The position numbers were made by a program, and so were the translations under genes. Below are positions 10,134 through 29,884 of a stretch of 57,715 bases of DNA, piece by piece; within the stretch, counting starts at the first letter, position 1; the number at the start of each line of letters is the position of its first letter. The notes below the pieces were generated by a model. The model did not search any database and was not told where the DNA came from. It saw nothing but the letters and a program-made list of their open reading frames with translations. Location of the stretch: contig CANPHV010000001.1 in the NCBI GenBank assembly GCA_947573965.1, forward strand, positions 1 to 57,715, written 5' to 3'. The stretch comes from an uncultured Clostridium sp. GTDB taxonomy: Bacteria; Bacillota; Clostridia; TANB77; CAG-508.

Positions 10134-12476
10134 ATGAGAAAGAATAGAGGAATTACCTTAACAGCACTAGTAATAACAATTATTGTATTACTGATTTTAG
10201 TAGGAGTAAGTGTTGCTAGTTTAACAGGAGAAAATGGACTACTTGAGAAATCAGGTAAAGCAGCAAATGAATATAAAAGACAAGCAGCAGAAGAAAAAAT
10301 AAAATTAGCCATAATAGCTTATCAAATAAATAAAGAGAATACAACAGTTTATGATGAATTAATAAAAATAGAAGGTTTAACTTTCATTACGCCAAATGAT
10401 AAAACAGAAGGACCTCCTTATACTGTGATTGTAGATGGATATGAATTTTTTATTAAAGAAGATTTAAAAATTGAATATAAAGGAGAAAAAGACGAGAAAG
10501 GAAATCAACCAGAAATTATAAAAGTAGAATATGAAACAGAAGAAGTAGATAAACTGGAGATAACTATAACTGCTATAACAGAAGATATAGAAGGGTTACA
10601 AGAAATTAGAGTGAATTATAAAAAAGTAGAAGGCGAAGAGATAAAATATGAACTTGTAAAGGTAGAAGAAGTTGGTGGAAAAGAAGCGAGCATAACAGTA
10701 GAAATACCAATAAATGGAGATTATTGTTTACAAGCAATTGGAAAAAATAAGAAAATAGGAAAAAAAGAAATTACCATCAACAATATACGAGAAGGAAGTG
10801 TACTAGTAAGTGTAACAGCAGGAGAAGTAGATGATGAAGCAAAATCAATGTTAACAATAATGGCAGAAAGTCAAGGAAAAGCGATTCAAAAAATGGAGTT
10901 ATTTGTGGCTGGAAAGAGTACAAAGACATATGAATATGAAAGTTTAGAACAAAACAGACAAGAAAATTATAGAATAGAAAATTTAGAGTTTTATAAAAGT
11001 ACAGAGTGCTATGTAAAAGTGTGGGATAATAAGGGAAAAGAAATCATTTCAGAAATAGAAGTTGCAAAAAATACAAAAATAATAAAGACAGCAACAGATT
11101 TAAGAAATTTAGCGATACAAGTAAATGAAGAAGATAATACTTTTGAAGGAAGGACAATTCAAGTAATTGAGGATATAATAGTAGGAAGTAATTGGATACC
11201 AATTGGTTATTGGGATGCAATTGGTCTATTTACAGGAAAAAGTTTTGCTGGAACTTTTGAAGGAAACAACCATACAGTAACAATTCCTTCTTTAAGCAAA
11301 GAGGAAAGATATAAAACTAGTGGACTGTTTGGTATGGTAATAGGGGGAAATATCAGTAATGTAATCGTAAAGGGAACGATGGATGCAAAATGTGAATATG
11401 TGGGAGGTATTGTAGGAGGAATTAAGAATGGAAAAGTAATAAATTGCATAAATAATAGCGAAATTACAGATACTACTTTGAATGGACATGGAGGAATTGT
11501 AGGAATATTAAGTGATAAGAGTCAAATAATCAATTGTATAAACAATGGCACAATATATGGAAATTCAATTGTTGGTGGAATCAGTGGAATCATTGATGAT
11601 GATGGACAAGGAGAATGCAAAATTTTTAATTGTACTAATTCTGGACGTATAAAGTGTTTTGGGACTTCAGAAATGATTTGGGGTACAGCAAAACAAAATT
11701 ATGGTATAGCAGGAGGAATTTGTGGAGAAGCATATGGAGAAAGGCACGTTCCTATTATTGAAAAATGTACAAATACAGGGGAAGTTACAGGAAATGCTTC
11801 TACTATTTTTCCAAATGGAATTGTAACAGGAGGAATTGTAGGATTTAGCCATCAATCTATTATTACGAAATCCAAAAATACAGGAAAAATCCATTATGAT
11901 ATTAATTCAGGAATTACTAATAACGGTGGTGCTTTAGGAGGAATTGTAGGAGCTAGTGTTGTCAATACAATAGTAGAACAATGCTTTAATACAGGTACTG
12001 TTACATCAAAATATAATAATAACTATGGAATGTATAATTCAGGAGGAATTGCTGGATATATGGCTTCTGCCACCATTAAAAATAGTTATAATAGGGGTTC
12101 GATTTATGGTTATGGAAACATTGGAGGAATTATAGGAACGACCGAAGCTATACAAGGAATTCAAGGAAAGAATTATTTTAATAATAATTATAATGCAAGT
12201 GAAATAGTTATGGGACAAACAATAGTAGGAAATTATGGCGGCGAAATCAGTAATGGTGAAGGCTCTTATAATGCGGCAATTATAAATCAAACAGGAGTAG
12301 CGGGAGGAACGAATAATAATTTTGGTGCTTATGAAGAATACACGCTACAACAAATGAAAACGATTGGTTCAGGTTTGCTAACTTTATTGAATAATGGAGA
12401 GGGAAATGGGATTTGGGAACAAAGTCTGAATATCAATGATGGATTTCCTTTTTTAAAAAATAATAGACCAGAATAA
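10134..12476 (+). CDS. large surface protein with pilin-like N-terminus and GLUG-like repeat C-terminal half
   Basis: MRKNRG-ITLTALVITIIVLLILVG (short basic leader ending in G, then a hydrophobic helix; position 5 is A, not E); more than 10 degenerate repeats containing GGIVG/GGIAG/GGICG. Confidence 0.7.
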   Translation: MRKNRGITLTALVITIIVLLILVGVSVASLTGENGLLEKSGKAANEYKRQAAEEKIKLAIIAYQINKENTTVYDELIKIEGLTFITPNDKTEGPPYTVIVDGYEFFIKEDLKIEYKGEKDEKGNQPEIIKVEYETEEVDKLEITITAITEDIEGLQEIRVNYKKVEGEEIKYELVKVEEVGGKEASITVEIPINGDYCLQAIGKNKKIGKKEITINNIREGSVLVSVTAGEVDDEAKSMLTIMAESQGKAIQKMELFVAGKSTKTYEYESLEQNRQENYRIENLEFYKSTECYVKVWDNKGKEIISEIEVAKNTKIIKTATDLRNLAIQVNEEDNTFEGRTIQVIEDIIVGSNWIPIGYWDAIGLFTGKSFAGTFEGNNHTVTIPSLSKEERYKTSGLFGMVIGGNISNVIVKGTMDAKCEYVGGIVGGIKNGKVINCINNSEITDTTLNGHGGIVGILSDKSQIINCINNGTIYGNSIVGGISGIIDDDGQGECKIFNCTNSGRIKCFGTSEMIWGTAKQNYGIAGGICGEAYGERHVPIIEKCTNTGEVTGNASTIFPNGIVTGGIVGFSHQSIITKSKNTGKIHYDINSGITNNGGALGGIVGASVVNTIVEQCFNTGTVTSKYNNNYGMYNSGGIAGYMASATIKNSYNRGSIYGYGNIGGIIGTTEAIQGIQGKNYFNNNYNASEIVMGQTIVGNYGGEISNGEGSYNAAIINQTGVAGGTNNNFGAYEEYTLQQMKTIGSGLLTLLNNGEGNGIWEQSLNINDGFPFLKNNRPE

Positions 12477-19790: not shown

Positions 19791-21791
19791 ATGGAAAAGG
19801 TAAGAAATTCAAGTGTTTTAAAAGTTTTATGTTATATTATGATACCAATTTTAGTAGCAATTTTTGGATTAAGTGTATTCCATCTAGCATTTTTAAATGA
19901 ATTTGGAAATAAAAAAGAAGAGGTAAAATACACACAAACAGAGAATTTTGCTAATAATTATTTGTATTTCTTTTTAGGAAAAGTTTATTATTGTGAGCCA
20001 GAGGTAAGGGATAAAAAGTTTAGAAAATTGGAAAATCAAGAAGGAGACTTGTATTGCTATTTTGATGAAGGAAGGAATTATGATAGTAGCCAAGTTGGAA
20101 ATTATATTAAGTACGTTATTGTAGAAAAAGCAACAGGAGACTTATTTACGAATATTAAAAGTGGTGATTACCAACAAGTAATGAGTGATATGCAAAATCA
20201 GAAGATATACTGGAATTTTGTAGATGGAAAAGTGGATACTAATTTAAGTTATATTAATCAAGATAATATTAAATATAGTTATTGTTTTAATGATACACAA
20301 GAAAGTAACGAACATGATTATGATATTTATAGCTTTTTTGATGAAGAAGAAGCCACAATAGCAAGTAATTTTCTATTCGATAAAACGGCCTATGATTTTA
20401 TGTTGCAACATAGGGATTTACCAATTTATGGGTGTATTTTTAGTGTGATAGTATTGCTAATGATTGCTTTTTATCTATTTTGTGCAATTGGCTATAAAAA
20501 AGGAGAAAGTGGAATTTGTTTAAATACCTTAGACAAGATACCTTATGAAATTATTTGTGCAATATGTGTGAATGTAATAGCCATAGCAGCTACTATTCTA
20601 GTTAGTATGACAAATGATATTTTTTCTTCTTATTATATAGTAATTGGTTTTTTCTTAATTTTTTATATTGTTGGGTATATTGCCTGTGCTGTATGGGGGA
20701 TTACAACCATAAAGAGAATTAAGGCAAAAACTTTTTGGAAAAGTTTTTTAACCTACAAGATTATGAATTGGTTAGTAAACAAAAAGATGAAGAAATATGT
20801 CAAAGAGTTTAGTCAAAAAACGTCAAGTGGACAAAAAATCTTCTGGTATTATTGGGGATTTGTTGTAATTAGTGTTGTGCTAGCTTGCTTACTAGGTAGT
20901 GCAACTGCAATTATTGCACTAATTCTATTCTGGCTATGGGTTTTTTATCGAATTAAAAAATATACGAGACAACAAGATGAAATAAAAGAAGCATTAGAAA
21001 AAATATATCAAGGAAATAATGAGATATATTTAAATGATAGCGAATTACAAGGCGTGCAAAAGGAAATGGCAGTTTACATTAATGATATTGCAGGTGGATT
21101 TTCCAATGCAATTGAGGAGAGTTTGAAGTCAGAAAGGTTAAAGACAGAGTTGATTACCAATGTGTCACATGATATCAAAACACCATTAACTTCTATCATT
21201 AACTATGTAGATTTATTGAAAAAAGAAGAACTACAAGACGAAAGAATAAGAGAATATGTTGAAATTTTAGATATGAAGTCACAAAGATTAAAAAAGCTAA
21301 CAGAAGATTTAGTAGAAGCTTCAAAGGTATCTTCTGGAAATGTGAAACTTACCATCGAAGAAATTAATTTAAAAGAATTAATTAACCAAAGTATCGGGGA
21401 ATTCAAAGACCGCTTTGAAGAAAAAGGGCTACAAATTGAAAGTAATATGCCAGAAGGAATAAAAGTAAAAGCCGATAATCGCTATTTATATCGAGTAATA
21501 GAAAATCTTTTTAGTAATATTACCAAATATGCACTAGAGAATTCAAGGGTTTATATTGATATTACAAAAGAGAAAAACAAAATTAGTATCAGTATGAAAA
21601 ATATTTCAAAGGAGAAACTAAATATTAGTAGTGATGAATTAATGCAACGTTTTGTCAGAGGGGATAAAGCAAGATACACCGAAGGAAGTGGCTTGGGATT
21701 ATCCATAGCTAAAAGCTTGACAGAATTACAAGGAGGAACGTTTGACATTTATATTGATGGTGATTTATTTAAGGTAGTAATTGAGTGGTAA
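19791..21791 (+). CDS. sensor histidine kinase with large N-terminal sensor and multi-TM region
   Basis: H-box ITNVSHDIKTPLTSI, N-box ENLFSNITKYA, G-box GSGLGLSIA. Confidence 0.9.
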   Translation: MEKVRNSSVLKVLCYIMIPILVAIFGLSVFHLAFLNEFGNKKEEVKYTQTENFANNYLYFFLGKVYYCEPEVRDKKFRKLENQEGDLYCYFDEGRNYDSSQVGNYIKYVIVEKATGDLFTNIKSGDYQQVMSDMQNQKIYWNFVDGKVDTNLSYINQDNIKYSYCFNDTQESNEHDYDIYSFFDEEEATIASNFLFDKTAYDFMLQHRDLPIYGCIFSVIVLLMIAFYLFCAIGYKKGESGICLNTLDKIPYEIICAICVNVIAIAATILVSMTNDIFSSYYIVIGFFLIFYIVGYIACAVWGITTIKRIKAKTFWKSFLTYKIMNWLVNKKMKKYVKEFSQKTSSGQKIFWYYWGFVVISVVLACLLGSATAIIALILFWLWVFYRIKKYTRQQDEIKEALEKIYQGNNEIYLNDSELQGVQKEMAVYINDIAGGFSNAIEESLKSERLKTELITNVSHDIKTPLTSIINYVDLLKKEELQDERIREYVEILDMKSQRLKKLTEDLVEASKVSSGNVKLTIEEINLKELINQSIGEFKDRFEEKGLQIESNMPEGIKVKADNRYLYRVIENLFSNITKYALENSRVYIDITKEKNKISISMKNISKEKLNISSDELMQRFVRGDKARYTEGSGLGLSIAKSLTELQGGTFDIYIDGDLFKVVIEW

Positions 21792-23618: not shown

Positions 23619-23704
23619 AAGAAAGAAGGCGATAGATTGACATTTAAACAAATGGTGTATTCTATACGAAAGCAAGCAGGATTAAAAGAAGGAGAGAAAG
23701 AAAA

Positions 23705-26194: not shown

Positions 26195-27193
26195 ATGTTT
26201 AAACCAAAAGCTATTTATTTTGAAAAAGAAATTATGAATTATCCATTAGGTAAGGAATTAATGGATAAGTATAAAGAAGTGCCTAAAATAGAGATAGAAA
26301 ACCATAATAATATTGAAGAAATGAGAAAAAAGTCCAATCGAGAATTTGCAGATATGAAGAGAAATTTAATTATTGGGGTTAGAAAAACACATAAATTTGT
26401 AGAAAATCATAAAACTTCAGATTATTTGGTGCCTTATACTTCATCTGGTTGCATAGCAGCTTGTATGTATTGTTACTTGGTATGTAACTATAATAAATGT
26501 GCGTATTTACGCTTGTTTGTCAATCGTGAGGCTATGTTAGAAAAAATAATAAAGACAGCGGAAAAATCGGAAAAAGAGTTAACCTTTGAAATCGGAAGCA
26601 ATAGTGACTTGATTTTAGAAAATACCATTACTAATAATTTAAAGTGGACGATTGAAAATTTTCAAAAGGTAAAACAGGGGAAATTAACTTTTCCTACTAA
26701 ATTTGATATGGTAGATGATATTCTACCACTGAATCATCAAGGGAAAGTGATTATTAGAATGAGTGTTAATCCAGAAGAAATTATTAATCGTGTAGAATTT
26801 GGGACTTCTAGGTTAAAGGGAAGAATTGAGGCTATTAATAAATTAAAAGAGGCGGGCTATTCGATTGGAATTTTGATAGCTCCTGTTATTTTAGTGGAAA
26901 ATTGGAAATTACTTTACCAAGAATTGATACAAAGGTTAGCGGAAGAATTGTCAGAAGCGGTAAAAAAAGAGGCGTTTTTTGAAATTATTTTTATGACGTA
27001 TAGTTATATTCACACGAAAATAAATGAAGAAGCTTTTCCCAATGCGATTTCTTTGTATGATAAGGAGAATATGACAGGTAGAGGTCGTGGGAAATATTGG
27101 TACAAAAATGAAATAAGAGGAGAGGCAGAATTGTTTTTGCGTGAACAGATGAGTCACTATTTTCCGCATAATAAAATTGAATATATTGTTTGA
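26195..27193 (+). CDS. splB: spore photoproduct lyase (radical SAM)
   Basis: 332 aa, cluster motif SSGCIAACMYCYL; size and overall pattern match SplB. Confidence 0.8.
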   Translation: MFKPKAIYFEKEIMNYPLGKELMDKYKEVPKIEIENHNNIEEMRKKSNREFADMKRNLIIGVRKTHKFVENHKTSDYLVPYTSSGCIAACMYCYLVCNYNKCAYLRLFVNREAMLEKIIKTAEKSEKELTFEIGSNSDLILENTITNNLKWTIENFQKVKQGKLTFPTKFDMVDDILPLNHQGKVIIRMSVNPEEIINRVEFGTSRLKGRIEAINKLKEAGYSIGILIAPVILVENWKLLYQELIQRLAEELSEAVKKEAFFEIIFMTYSYIHTKINEEAFPNAISLYDKENMTGRGRGKYWYKNEIRGEAELFLREQMSHYFPHNKIEYIV

Positions 27194-27227
27194 TTCTAAA
27201 ATGCAGTAATTGTGAAGTTACTGTGTT
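27176..27227 (+). repeat. 52-bp direct repeat, copy 1 (last 5 codons + stop of splB + hairpin)
   Basis: identical to 29055-29106; contains hairpin CAGTAA-N8-TTACTG; followed here by an A-run, not a T-run. Confidence 0.9.
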
Positions 27228-27257
27228 AAAAAAAATGAAACCAACTATGTTAATTTG

Positions 27258-27286
27258 TTGACAAGTATCTTTCTATTTGATACAAT
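27258..27286 (+). promoter_or_regulatory. sigma-A promoter inside the cassette
   Basis: TTGACA-17-TACAAT. Confidence 0.6.
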
Positions 27287-27379
27287 GCAACAAAGAAAAT
27301 CTTACGAAAGAATGAGAAAAGCGGAATAAAAAATGAACCAATGGAAAAAACTAAAGAAAATAATGGGAGGAAAAAAGAG

Positions 27380-28972
27380 ATGAACAAACAAAGAGGAATT
27401 ACGCTAATTGCATTAGTGATAACGATTATCGTATTGTTAATTTTAGCGGGAATAAGTATAGCGACTTTAACAGGAGAAAATGGAATATTAAATAAAACGA
27501 ATAAAGCCAAAGAAGAACATCTAATAGAACAATACAAAGAAGAAATTAATTTAATTATTATAGATGAAATAGCAGAAAGAAAAACACAAAGAAAAGAAGA
27601 ACGAATGATAATTAGTTTAGATAAAAAAATAAGAGAAAAAGAATGGGTTAACGAAATTTATAAATGTAACAGTAGTGGAGAAGAACAACCAACTTTTGAA
27701 GAAAGTACCCATTTATTAGTAGAAAGTAAAGAACATTATGAATTTTTAATTGAAGTAGATGAAGCAAAACAAACCGCTAAAATTGTGGATTTTGGAAAAG
27801 ATACAGGAGAAAAATATACAGTAACCTATCATCCAAATGGAGGAGAAGGGCAAGCAGAAACAATAGAAATTAAGCAAGGAACTACTTTAACATTGAAAGA
27901 ATGTAATTATATAAGAAAAGGATATACCTTTTTGGAGTGGAATACCCAAGCAGAAGGGACAGGAAATGGATATGAAAGTGGGGCCAATATCAGTATTAAA
28001 GAAGATATGATTTTATATGCTGTCTGGAAAGCACCAAGCACAGTGGAGGAAGCAAAGGAAGCTGGCGTTATATTAAACTCAGAACAACCAACAACGATTA
28101 CAGACACTTATGGAAATGAAGTGAGAGTGCCAGAAGGATTTAAAATAGCAGAAGATTCTGCAACTAATGCAACAGAAGGAATTGTAATTGAAGATGTAAG
28201 CCATGAAGCTACTGCTGGAAGTCAGTTTGTGTGGATACCAGTAGGCACTGTTTATACCAATGCTCAGAAAACTACAAGTGAAACAATAACACTAAACAGA
28301 TATACATTTGATGATAATGGGAATTCAACGGCGCAAGGAGAAAAAGTAATAGATAGTTATTATCAAGAATTAGCAACTTCTAATAAAGGTAATATAGTTG
28401 CTAAAAATATTCAGGCATTTAAAACAAGTGCAACAACCAATAAAGGATATTATATGGGGAGATATGAAGCAAGAAGTGTAACACAAAGAACTTCTGAAGC
28501 GAATGAGTTAGGACAAGTAACAACAAAACCCAATGACTATGTGTACAATTATGTTACACAACAACAAGCAGCAACATTAGCAAGAGAAATGTATGAAACC
28601 AATAACAAATTCACAAGTGATTTAGTAAATAGTTATGCTTGGGATACGGCAATTGTATTTTTACAAACTTTTGATAATAGAAGCAATAAAACAAAACCCT
28701 ATTCAAAACAAAATAGCTTAAACACTACATTGGCACCTAAAGGAACCAATAACTTAAGTAATACAGCCAGACAAGATAAGATATGCAATGTTTGGGATAT
28801 GGCAAGCAATAACTTTTCTTGGACTACAGAGACATCTTTAATGTCTGGAGCACCAGCTCCAGTTAGAGGCGGAACTGTCTTTCTCGATGCATACTGTACA
28901 TCTTCTCGTGACTATGACAACATTGATTATGCCAATAATTATTGTTCATTTAGAACGATACTTTATTTATAA
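27380..28972 (+). CDS. surface protein with pilin-like N-terminus, Listeria-Bacteroides-type repeat and FGE/sulfatase-modifying-factor-like C-terminal domain
   Basis: GGGAGG RBS before ATG 27380; MNKQRG-ITLIALVITIIVLLILAG; YTVTYHPNGGEG...GYTFLEWN repeat; C-terminus YYMGRYEA...NVWDMASNNFSWTTE...VRGG. Confidence 0.7.
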   Translation: MNKQRGITLIALVITIIVLLILAGISIATLTGENGILNKTNKAKEEHLIEQYKEEINLIIIDEIAERKTQRKEERMIISLDKKIREKEWVNEIYKCNSSGEEQPTFEESTHLLVESKEHYEFLIEVDEAKQTAKIVDFGKDTGEKYTVTYHPNGGEGQAETIEIKQGTTLTLKECNYIRKGYTFLEWNTQAEGTGNGYESGANISIKEDMILYAVWKAPSTVEEAKEAGVILNSEQPTTITDTYGNEVRVPEGFKIAEDSATNATEGIVIEDVSHEATAGSQFVWIPVGTVYTNAQKTTSETITLNRYTFDDNGNSTAQGEKVIDSYYQELATSNKGNIVAKNIQAFKTSATTNKGYYMGRYEARSVTQRTSEANELGQVTTKPNDYVYNYVTQQQAATLAREMYETNNKFTSDLVNSYAWDTAIVFLQTFDNRSNKTKPYSKQNSLNTTLAPKGTNNLSNTARQDKICNVWDMASNNFSWTTETSLMSGAPAPVRGGTVFLDAYCTSSRDYDNIDYANNYCSFRTILYL

Positions 28973-29054
28973 GATAAAACAGAAAAAGCGGAAAAGATAG
29001 TGAAGGAAATTTAATACTACATTGGGGTTCGCGTCGCTTTAATTGTGTAGAATT

Positions 29055-29106
29055 ATTGAATATATTGTTTGATTCTAAAATGCAGTAATTGTGAAGTTAC
29101 TGTGTT
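29055..29106 (+). repeat. 52-bp direct repeat, copy 2 (followed by a T7 run, so a functional terminator)
   Basis: identical to 27176-27227; no upstream ORF is in frame with the duplicated splB codons. Confidence 0.9.
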
Positions 29107-29278
29107 TTTTTCGTTACTATATAGTAAATTTGCAAGAAAAGTAATTGAAAATAAGCATAAAATGTTGCACTATAATTAAAATTTAAATCTTTTTCTGAAT
29201 GTGATTCTTACATTTGGATTTTCCAAAAAAGGTATTGAAAAAAGTAAAAAATGATGATATAGTAAAGGTGGTGATAGA

Positions 29279-29545
29279 TTGCCAGTTATTTTGCAATTTT
29301 ATGGAATTGTTATTCAAATGTTTTTTGATGAAAACGGAAAACATCATGAAAAACATATACATGTTAGGTATAATGAACAAGAAGCGGTATATGATTTAAA
29401 AGGAAATATTTTGGAAGGACAAGTTCCATACAAAAAAAGAAAATTAGTAGAAGCGTGGATTACTATTCATGAAGAAGAATTGAATAGTTTGTGGAATTTA
29501 ATCCATGAGCAAGGCGAATTCTTTAAAATAGAACCTTTAAAGTAA
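29279..29545 (+). CDS. DUF4160-family protein
   Basis: TTG start after an AAGGTGGTGA RBS; LPVILQFYGIVIQMFFDENGKHHEKHIHVRY is a typical DUF4160 N-terminus. Confidence 0.7.
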   Translation: MPVILQFYGIVIQMFFDENGKHHEKHIHVRYNEQEAVYDLKGNILEGQVPYKKRKLVEAWITIHEEELNSLWNLIHEQGEFFKIEPLK

Positions 29546-29563
29546 AAAATGGAGGGGGAAATA

Positions 29564-29815
29564 ATGTATATAGTACCAAAGCCAATAAAAATAAAAATAT
29601 TGGAAAACTATAGAATATGGATAAAATTTGAAAATGAAGAAAAGAAAATTATTGACATGAAGAAATACATAAAAGAAAAATTTTATCAAAAGTTAAGAAA
29701 TGAAGAATATTTTAAAAAAGTAAAAATTTTTGAAAATACAATACAATGGGAAAATGGAGAAGACATAGCACCAGAAAACTTATACTATGATAGCATAGCA
29801 GAAAAAGAGATTTAA
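29564..29815 (+). CDS. DUF2442-family protein
   Basis: GGAGGGGG RBS before ATG 29564; small beta-rich protein ending ..QWENGEDIAPENLY; adjacent to the DUF4160 gene. Confidence 0.65.
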   Translation: MYIVPKPIKIKILENYRIWIKFENEEKKIIDMKKYIKEKFYQKLRNEEYFKKVKIFENTIQWENGEDIAPENLYYDSIAEKEI

Positions 29816-29884
29816 ACAACTTTTCACAAACATCAGGAAAATTTGTAAAAAACACTTGAAAAATATTCCAAAATATAGTACAAT

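What the first reader, a model, noticed from the sequence alone, without database searches (positions are those of the whole stretch)
27176..29106. 1.8-kb cassette bounded by perfect 52-bp direct repeats that duplicate the 3' end and terminator hairpin of splB
Segments 27176-27227 and 29055-29106 are identical. The repeat contains the last five codons and stop of splB plus the hairpin CAGTAA-N8-TTACTG. Only the second copy is followed by the T7 run that makes it a functional terminator; the first is followed by A8. Between the repeats lie a consensus promoter (TTGACA-17-TACAAT), one pilin-like-anchored surface protein gene and a GGGG-core hairpin (29017-29050). A 52-bp duplication is too long for a transposase target-site duplication. 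It resembles an attL/attR core left by site-specific integration, but no recombinase is present.
Basis: seen in the sequence. Interest (0 to 1): 0.6.

Follow-up and report, generated by a model that had tools for sequence, protein, structure and literature searches.

The report
Strain-specific surface-protein gene insertion behind splB
A 1.8-kb piece of DNA carrying one surface-protein gene was inserted behind the splB gene in some strains of an uncultured gut Clostridia species, copying 52 bases of the target in the process; it is a real gain/loss difference between strains but shows no sign of being a self-mobile element.

Summary
Window 27176-27227 and 29055-29106 are identical 52-mers, each holding the last five splB codons, the stop and a 12-bp hairpin. 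They are the only two copies in the 1.41-Mb genome.

It is not an assembly artefact. At least five other separately assembled samples, including a JGI contig, show the same structure.

The predicted empty site exists. Conspecific contigs 99.2-99.5% identical in the flanks carry splB, one 52-mer, the T7 run and then DUF4160.

- **Cargo:** a family-specific promoter, a pilin-like protein with a Flg_new domain and an FGE/C-type-lectin-like domain, and an in-frame relic of another paralogue's 3' end.
- **Missing from the insert:** a recombinase, terminal inverted repeats and a terminator of its own.
- **Not found elsewhere:** the 52-mer at any other site, other cargo at this site, or repeats flanking other family members.

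Flank SNPs indicate a single origin followed by homologous exchange between strains.

Best reading (about 0.4): single-crossover integration of a circularised conspecific DNA fragment that kept a 52-bp stub of splB homology.

Interest is modest.

The parts
26195..27193 (+). splB (spore photoproduct lyase), 332 aa. Its last 5 codons and stop lie inside repeat copy 1.
   Evidence: Pfam PF20903, E 7.7e-72. The C-terminus IEYIV* is conserved in relatives.
27176..27227 (+). Direct repeat copy 1 (52 bp): the splB tail plus the hairpin 27200-27227. It is followed by A8, so the terminator has lost its U-tract.
27228..29054 (+). Inserted DNA (1827 bp), absent from the empty-site strains.
   Evidence: Alignment with Type A contigs L045-L048 and L050. 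G+C is 0.321 against 0.31-0.32 in the flanks.
27241..27286 (+). Promoter of the pilin-like gene family: the motif AACTATGTTAATTTG fused to TTGACA, a 17-nt spacer, then (TG)aTACAAT.
   Evidence: The same motif lies upstream of at least 8 paralogues in the genome. Promoter scan scores 11 of 12.
27380..28972 (+). Cargo gene, 530 aa (543 aa if it starts at 27341). It has a pilin-like N-terminal helix, a Listeria-Bacteroides repeat (InlB B-repeat-like) and a C-terminal FGE/C-type-lectin-like domain.
   Evidence: Pfam Flg_new E 4.6e-15; N_methyl 21.1 bits against a cut-off of 21.2. AF2 model pLDDT 86.6. Foldseek hits to InlB, PorK, TvpA, CarF and PvdO. Paralogues are 61-69% identical over the C-terminal domain.
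29015..29050 (+). In-frame relic of another paralogue's 3' end (YYIGVRVALIV*).
   Evidence: Compare C11 ...YANDYIGVRAALW*: 16 identical bases, ACTACATTGGGGTTCG. The fold is not significant.
29055..29106 (+). Direct repeat copy 2 (52 bp). Its hairpin 29079-29106 plus T7 (29105-29111) now terminates the cargo gene.
29279..29815 (+). DUF4160-DUF2442 gene pair. It is itself an older strain-variable insert (present in Type A, absent in Type B), joined with only a 2-bp AT overlap and no long repeat.

Best explanation
The 1.83-kb segment is ordinary chromosomal DNA from a close relative. It carries a pilin-like surface-protein gene with the family's own promoter. It entered the chromosome once, in a sub-lineage of this species, at the splB terminator.

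**Most likely route.**
1. A DNA fragment came from a conspecific donor in which this gene already lay directly behind the splB hairpin.
2. The fragment was trimmed at both ends and closed into a circle. The closure joint is at 29054|29055.
3. The circle recombined by a single (Campbell-type) homologous crossover through its remaining 52-bp stub of splB homology.

The stub therefore now stands on both sides of the insert.

**Consequences.**
- Copy 1 keeps splB intact, but its hairpin is now followed by A8, so read-through into the new gene is likely.
- Copy 2, with the original T7 run, terminates the new gene.
- The allele has since been passed between strains, or its flanks exchanged, by homologous recombination.
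- The two identical 52-mers allow precise loss of the insert.

**Shown:** the insert, the duplication, the empty site, the variation between strains, the chromosomal character of the cargo, and mosaic flanks.

**Inferred:** the circular intermediate, the donor arrangement and dependence on RecA.
For: - **Empty site.** It is exact, carries one 52-mer, and lies in strains 99.2-99.5% identical in the flanks.
- **Shape of the repeat.** Identity is perfect and falls to random at both ends. The left end lies in the middle of the splB codons and the right end between the hairpin and its U-tract. These look like arbitrary breakpoints, not functional ones.
- **Shape of the insert.** It has no terminator of its own, ends 4 nt after a relic of another paralogue's stop codon, and has no inverted ends.
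- **Provenance.** The promoter motif is shared with at least 8 paralogues, and G+C equals that of the flanks. This indicates origin within the lineage.
- **One-off event.** There are no other copies of the 52-mer, and no repeats around 8 paralogues here or in about 40 loci fetched from relatives, roughly half of them pilin-like gene loci.
- **Single origin.** Filled strains share G27133 and GC27166-67 just outside the repeat. Beyond about 95-250 bp on the left and at most 113 bp on the right, one filled strain (L061) is identical to an empty strain (L046). This shows short-arm homologous exchange at this locus.
- **Direction of change.** The shared 126-bp hicA deletion places the filled strains inside a Type A sub-lineage, so gain is the most parsimonious reading.
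- **Experimental precedent.** In E. coli, trimmed and re-circularised fragments integrated by single crossover and gave foreign DNA flanked by a duplication of the remaining homology, 109-950 bp long (PMC3240628).
- **Related arrangement.** In the closest other species searched, a pilin-like gene directly follows splB.
Against: - The postulated donor arrangement (splB hairpin, then A8, then the cassette, then a different right flank) was not found. The next-best homologue of the cargo among 5.8 billion proteins is 69% identical. The genus scan of 338 species found no match to the 3' flank.
- 52 bp is close to the lower limit for RecA-dependent exchange. The limit in this organism is unknown.
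- A circle was neither seen nor searchable.
- The sequence alone cannot tell a homologous crossover from a site-specific one, or from a template-switch duplication.
Confidence: 0.4

Rival explanations
1. Site-specific integration. The cassette is a recombinase-less integrative element, CIME-like. Its attP is the 52-mer, and it is integrated and excised in trans by a tyrosine recombinase that uses the hairpin's inverted arms as a core site.
For: - Exact direct repeats match a single-copy empty site.
- The target is the 3' end of a conserved gene, and the gene is kept intact.
- The repeat contains an inverted repeat around a short spacer.
- The genome encodes 3-4 tyrosine and 2 serine recombinases elsewhere.
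- CIMEs, which are att-flanked elements lacking an integrase, are documented (PMC5704250).
Against: - No recombinase lies in or near the insert.
- The genome's phage-type integrase belongs to a tRNA-Thr island with its own 18-bp core and an imperfect extended duplication. That anatomy differs from this one.
- The 52-mer occurs nowhere else.
- No alternative cargo lies at this site in Types A, B, C or E.
- The cargo is one chromosomal-family gene with arbitrary ends and no remnant of element genes.
- Shared SNPs 9-43 bp outside the repeat in filled strains of different backgrounds fit homologous transfer, not independent integrations.
Confidence: 0.2
2. One-step duplicative insertion during replication or break repair. 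The fork stalls at the terminator hairpin, the nascent strand switches to foreign or ectopic DNA, copies 1.83 kb, and returns 52 nt behind its point of departure. Alternatively, a staggered break is filled in. Either way a target duplication arises de novo.
For: - It is a one-off event with arbitrary, sharp boundaries.
- A stable hairpin lies inside the duplicated segment.
- There are no element features.
- No pre-existing adjacency of the cassette and splB is needed.
- Another stray direct repeat of a gene segment lies about 1.86 kb from its source in the same genome: 35 bp of the uvrB P-loop on contig C34.
Against: - The template is not in this genome, so foreign DNA would have had to be present at the fork.
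- No microhomology is visible at either junction, though the donor is unknown.
- I retrieved no bacterial precedent for kilobase insertions of this kind.
Confidence: 0.25
3. Transposition by a transposase acting in trans that makes unusually long target duplications, as IS1634 and IS1549 do.
For: IS1634-family elements give duplications of 8-514 bp (PMC2266710).
Against: There are no terminal inverted repeats and no transposase. There is a single copy of the insert, and no other insertion of the family has flanking repeats.
Confidence: 0.03
4. Assembly artefact: a mis-join or a collapsed strain mixture.
For: The genome is a fragmented metagenome-assembled genome. Some Logan contigs break inside the 52-mer (L037, L049).
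Against: - The same structure appears in at least 5 other separately assembled samples from two sources (ENA and JGI), including single contigs that span both repeats (L038, L061).
- Breaks in the k=31 Logan contigs are expected at a 52-bp repeat.
- The cassette has diverged by 0.33% between lineages, like its flanks.
Confidence: 0.01

Closest known systems
Single-crossover (Campbell-type) integration of a re-circularised DNA fragment, giving an insert flanked by a duplication of the residual homology (E. coli conjugation experiments, PMC3240628)
   Same: Foreign DNA lies between two direct copies of a chromosomal segment. The boundaries are arbitrary, no dedicated recombinase is involved, and one illegitimate joint (the circle closure) is present.
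   Different: The duplications there were 109-950 bp and arose in a laboratory plasmid system. Here the duplication is 52 bp in a natural population, and the donor and the circle are inferred.
CIMEs (cis-mobilizable elements): att-flanked remnants of ICEs or IMEs at the 3' ends of genes in streptococci (PMC5704250)
   Same: No integrase inside, direct repeats that include the 3' end of the target gene, and a precise empty site.
   Different: CIMEs are decayed ICEs or IMEs. They sit at sites used by known integrases and often form tandem accretions. Here there is no element remnant, no known cognate integrase and no second user of the site.
Homology-facilitated illegitimate recombination in naturally transformable bacteria
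   Same: One homologous and one illegitimate joint capture foreign DNA beside a conserved gene.
   Different: It typically gives an insertion coupled with a deletion, not a duplication (PMC3240628 introduction).
Long, variable target duplications of IS1634 and IS1549 (PMC2266710)
   Same: Direct repeats of tens to hundreds of bp flank an insertion.
   Different: Those elements carry a transposase and terminal inverted repeats. This insert has neither.

Membership tests
Site-specific integrative element (attL/attR island, CIME) | Direct repeats flank the insert, and one copy stands at the empty site. | tested here: met
Site-specific integrative element (attL/attR island, CIME) | A recombinase is encoded in the element or adjacent to it, or element gene remnants are present. 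| tested here: not met
   The insert holds only a promoter, one surface-protein gene and a paralogue relic. The recombinases lie on other contigs.
Site-specific integrative element (attL/attR island, CIME) | The same att core is used by other elements or cargo, or is present on a circular form or phage. | tested here: not met
   The 52-mer occurs only at splB. There were 0 hits in IMG/VR and in the JGI contig scan; that JGI scan evidently omits near-identical records. Types A, B, C and E show no other repeat-flanked cargo.
Transposon or insertion sequence | Terminal inverted repeats and a transposase. | tested here: not met
   No inverted repeat joins the insert ends. No transposase ORF is present.
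Diversity-generating retroelement repeat pair (TR/VR) | Repeats differ at adenines of the template, a reverse transcriptase lies nearby, and VR sits at the 3' end of the variable gene. | tested here: not met
   The repeats are 100% identical, lie at splB and in intergenic DNA, and no reverse transcriptase is in the window. Genuine DGR pairs exist elsewhere in the genome, on C42 and C5.
Intrinsic terminator (for the hairpin in the repeat) | A stable stem-loop followed directly by a U-tract. | tested here: met
   Copy 2: -13.3 kcal/mol followed by U7. Copy 1 keeps the stem (-11.5 kcal/mol) but is followed by A8. The simple scan missed it because the stem has fewer than 3 G-C pairs.
Type IV pilin-like (prepilin-type N-terminus) proteins (for the cargo) | An N-terminal methylation/cleavage motif with a hydrophobic helix. 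| tested here: inconclusive
   N_methyl scores 21.1 bits against a cut-off of 21.2. The sequence is G|ITLIALV with Ala, not Glu, at position +5. The AF2 model has a long N-terminal helix.

The most novel reading that the evidence does not exclude
The 52-mer is a true recombination site. A host recombinase acting in trans, of the Xer type or otherwise, uses the terminator hairpin to insert and excise single-gene surface-protein cassettes.
Probability: 0.1. Interest if true: 0.7.

Novelty: new member of a known kind. Interest (0 to 1): 0.3.

Why it matters
The locus is a clean natural example of how a new surface-protein gene is added to a bacterial chromosome without any mobile-element machinery. 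The filled and empty alleles, the mosaic flanks and the history of the site can all be read from public metagenomes. The inferred order is Type B, then Type A, then Type A with the hicA deletion, then the filled allele.

The gene family concerned makes up about 3% of the genes in these uncultured gut Clostridia and probably shapes their cell surface. Knowing how family members are gained and lost is therefore useful.

The 52-bp repeats make the insert precisely deletable, so the gene can act as a strain-level presence/absence switch.

If the minority reading were true, with a recombinase acting on the hairpin in trans, this would be a new cassette system. Nothing found here requires that.

Tried and rejected
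- **Collection scans.**
  - The JGI metagenome scan returned 0 hits for a 36-mer of the repeat and for the cassette's right end. Records close to this genome are evidently left out, because one search shows that a JGI contig carries both.
  - The GTDB contig scan for the cassette's right end returned 0 hits.
  - The IMG/VR scan for the hairpin part returned 0 hits.
- **Donor search.** The closest homologue outside the cassette's own cluster is 69% identical. It lies upstream of a nifS-like gene in another conspecific strain. A scan of 338 species of the genus matched only the coding part, at 82% or less.
- **A general 'cassette with long repeats' rule.** Rejected. Eight paralogues with the same promoter have upstream/downstream matches of only 5-10 bp, against 7-15 bp in controls. 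About 40 loci from relatives show only tandem-paralogue repeats.
- **Xer/dif (IMEX-like) idea.** No dif-like site could be found in this genome by similarity to the B. subtilis dif site, and the 52-mer does not resemble dif. The idea was left untested.
- **Within-species tree.** The flank tree is an unresolved star, so direction of change rests on shared indels instead.
- **Contig L044.** Its apparent 2% divergence is a cluster of transversions and an 18-bp gap in a contig of about 3x coverage. I treated it as noise.
- **Shared 8-mer.** TAATTGTG occurs both in the hairpin loop and at the cassette's right end. I judged this a chance match, with an expected count of about 0.1-0.2.
Full report
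**1. The observation**

The two segments 27176-27227 and 29055-29106 are identical over 52 bp, and identity stops abruptly at both ends. BLAST of the whole 1.41-Mb, 108-contig genome finds only these two copies. The window is the whole of contig C1.

The repeat starts with the last five codons and the stop of splB (IEYIV*; Pfam SPL, E 7.7e-72). It ends with a hairpin of 12 pairs and a 4-nt loop at 27200-27227. The hairpin's free energy is -11.5 kcal/mol, with z -4.3 against shuffles.

Copy 1 is followed by A8. Copy 2 runs into T7 and then folds at -13.3 kcal/mol, which is a normal intrinsic terminator. The promoter TTGACA-17-TACAAT, with an extended -10 box, lies at 27258-27286.

**2. Not an artefact**

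Contigs assembled separately from other samples reproduce the structure at 99.6-100% identity.
- ERZ14651001 has one contig across both repeats (L038/L043).
- ERZ14651014 and ERZ14651018 each carry both junctions.
- ERZ14651009 carries the cassette and the right junction.
- JGI metagenome 3300038382 has a 53-kb contig (L061). It is 99.57% identical over 9.6 kb, both 52-mers are perfect, and it has A7 in place of A8.

Between L061 and the window, the cassette differs at 6 of 1827 positions. The flanks differ to a similar degree. The insert has therefore been inherited for some time.

**3. The empty site and the history of the locus**

The SplB cluster at 90% identity or more has 38 members. Contigs encoding variants 2-4 residues away show several arrangements.

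| Type | Contigs | Arrangement after splB |
|---|---|---|
| A | L045-L048, L050 | one 52-mer, TTTTTCGTTACTATATAGTAAAT, then DUF4160, DUF2442, rpsO, pnp |
| B | L051-L056, L065-L070 | one 52-mer, then rpsO, pnp |
| C | L057-L060 | 52-mer with two loop changes, then unrelated genes |
| E | L062-L064 | a partly different terminator, then an ABC transporter |

- Type A is exactly the predicted empty site. Its flanks are 99.2-99.5% identical to the window.
- In Type B the 0.7-kb DUF4160/DUF2442 pair is missing. Its junctions share only 'AT'.
- Type E is a more distant lineage, 88% identical at the nucleotide level.

Another species of the genus (G014) also has splB, rpsO, pnp, so Type B is probably ancestral.

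An identical 126-bp deletion inside hicA is shared by the filled strains and the Type A strains L046-48. hicA is intact in L045 (Type A) and in the Type B contigs that reach hicA (L051, L052, L065, L066). The most parsimonious order is Type B, then Type A, then Type A with the hicA deletion, then the filled allele. The cassette is a recent gain in one sub-lineage. The flank tree itself is an unresolved star.

**4. What the insert is**

It spans 27228-29054 and holds three things.

- **A promoter.** Its -35 region is fused to the motif AACTATGTTAATTTG. The same motif precedes at least 8 other genes of the family in this genome.
- **One gene of 530-543 aa.**
  - It has a pilin-like N-terminus, with N_methyl scoring 21.1 bits, just under the cut-off.
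  - It has a Flg_new repeat.
  - It has a C-terminal domain of about 300 aa.
  - In an AF2 model (pLDDT 86.6) that C-terminal domain resembles FGE/C-type-lectin-fold proteins (PorK, TvpA, CarF, PvdO).
  - The middle domain resembles the InlB B-repeat.
- **A relic.** At 29015-29050, in frame and 14 codons after the stop, lies YYIGVRVALIV*. This is the relic of another paralogue's C-terminus (compare ...YANDYIGVRAALW* on C11).

The insert has no terminator of its own, no inverted ends and no recombinase or transposase. Its G+C content equals that of the flanks.

The family is very large, with at least 35 matches in this genome, and it varies between strains. The nearest homologue, at 69% identity, sits upstream of a nifS-like gene in another conspecific strain, where this genome has a different neighbour. 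All of this marks the insert as chromosomal DNA of the same lineage. It does not look like a dedicated mobile element.

**5. Tests of mobility**

- The 52-mer occurs nowhere else. This holds for the own genome and for IMG/VR. The JGI contig scan was also empty, though it evidently omits near-identical records.
- No other cargo is flanked by it in any of the other four arrangements.
- None of 8 paralogues with the same promoter has flanking repeats beyond chance. Nor do about 40 loci fetched from relatives, roughly half of them pilin-like gene loci.
- A genuine integrase island in the same genome looks different. Its integrase lies next to tRNA-Thr, with an 18-bp identical core inside a longer, imperfect duplicate of the tRNA 3' half.
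- The filled strains share G27133 and GC27166-67 just left of copy 1. Beyond about 95-250 bp on the left, L061 is identical to the empty strain L046. The same holds from the first informative site 61 nt after copy 2 on the right. The allele therefore has one origin. It has since been moved, or its flanks replaced, by homologous recombination with short arms.

**6. Mechanism**

The structure (target segment, insert, same target segment) can arise in three main ways.

(a) *A circle carrying the 52-mer recombines once with the chromosome.* I favour the homologous version of this. A fragment comes from a conspecific donor in which the gene already followed the splB hairpin. The fragment is trimmed, closed into a circle at 29054|29055, and integrated through the 52-bp stub. 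This needs only one illegitimate joint. It explains the arbitrary ends and the perfect, sharply bounded repeat. It also has an experimental precedent with duplications of 109-950 bp (PMC3240628). Its weakness is that the donor arrangement has not been seen.

It is not excluded, but no specific evidence supports it.

(c) *A duplication created de novo by template switching or break repair at the hairpin.* This also fits a one-off event.

A transposase that makes long duplications is known (IS1634, PMC2266710), but the insert lacks every other transposon feature.

My odds are: (a) 0.4, (c) 0.25, (b) 0.2, other routes not modelled about 0.1, transposition 0.03, artefact 0.01.

**7. Consequences** (inferred)

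- splB stays intact but loses the U-tract of its terminator, so read-through into the new gene is likely.
- The new gene uses the original splB terminator.
- The two 52-mers allow precise deletion back to Type A.

**8. Verdict**

The locus is an ordinary though well-documented gain of a strain-variable surface-protein gene, flanked by an unusually long target duplication. Interest is modest.

Noticed in passing
G000 contig C34: 3989-4023 and 5844-5878: A second stray direct repeat of 35 bp (39 bp with one mismatch), 1855 bp apart. It is the uvrB P-loop segment, including a CGGA four-base glycine site. It recurs upstream of an AlbA_2/Schlafen-like gene that precedes uvrB. This is not a simple target duplication, because the uvrB 5' end lies next to the second copy. 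It remains unexplained.
   Followed up: partly
G000 contig C42 (TR 10468-10587, VR 11369-11485) and contig C5 (TR 20302-20396, VR 21005-21099): Two diversity-generating retroelements. The repeat pairs are 78% and 89% identical. All mismatches in the C5 pair, and nearly all in the C42 pair, fall at template adenines, and reverse transcriptases lie adjacent. The variable repeats sit at the 3' ends of lectin-fold genes. On C42 this is a pilin-like family member.
   Followed up: partly
window 27241-27263, and at least 8 other loci in G000 (C11, C12, C47, C48, C49, C50, C64, C75): The motif AACTATGTTAATTTG is conserved and fused to the -35 box of many pilin-like family genes. It is a candidate common operator or activator site for the whole family.
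   Followed up: partly
window 23653-23655: hicA is removed by an in-frame 126-bp deletion with a 3-bp TGG overlap. This explains the orphan hicB. Intact hicA-hicB is present in other conspecific strains (L045, L051, L052, L065, L066).
   Followed up: yes
window 29107-29831: The DUF4160-DUF2442 pair is itself a strain-variable 0.7-kb insert, 24 nt after the splB terminator. It is present in Type A and absent in Type B, with only a 2-bp junction overlap. The splB terminator region has been hit at least twice.
   Followed up: yes
G000 contig C25: 15507-15585 and 18054-18132: A 79-bp perfect direct repeat containing a hairpin lies in two intergenic spacers of the ribosomal-protein operon, before rplF and before rplX. 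It may be a dispersed intergenic element.
   Followed up: no
L071 (ENA ERZ14864659), compared with G000 C24:10526-10724: In another conspecific strain, the closest homologue of the cargo gene (69% identical) lies directly upstream of a nifS-like gene. That gene's aligned 199 bp, about 160 bp of it coding, are 99.5% identical to G000, where a patatin-like gene lies upstream instead. Family members occupy different sites in different strains.
   Followed up: partly
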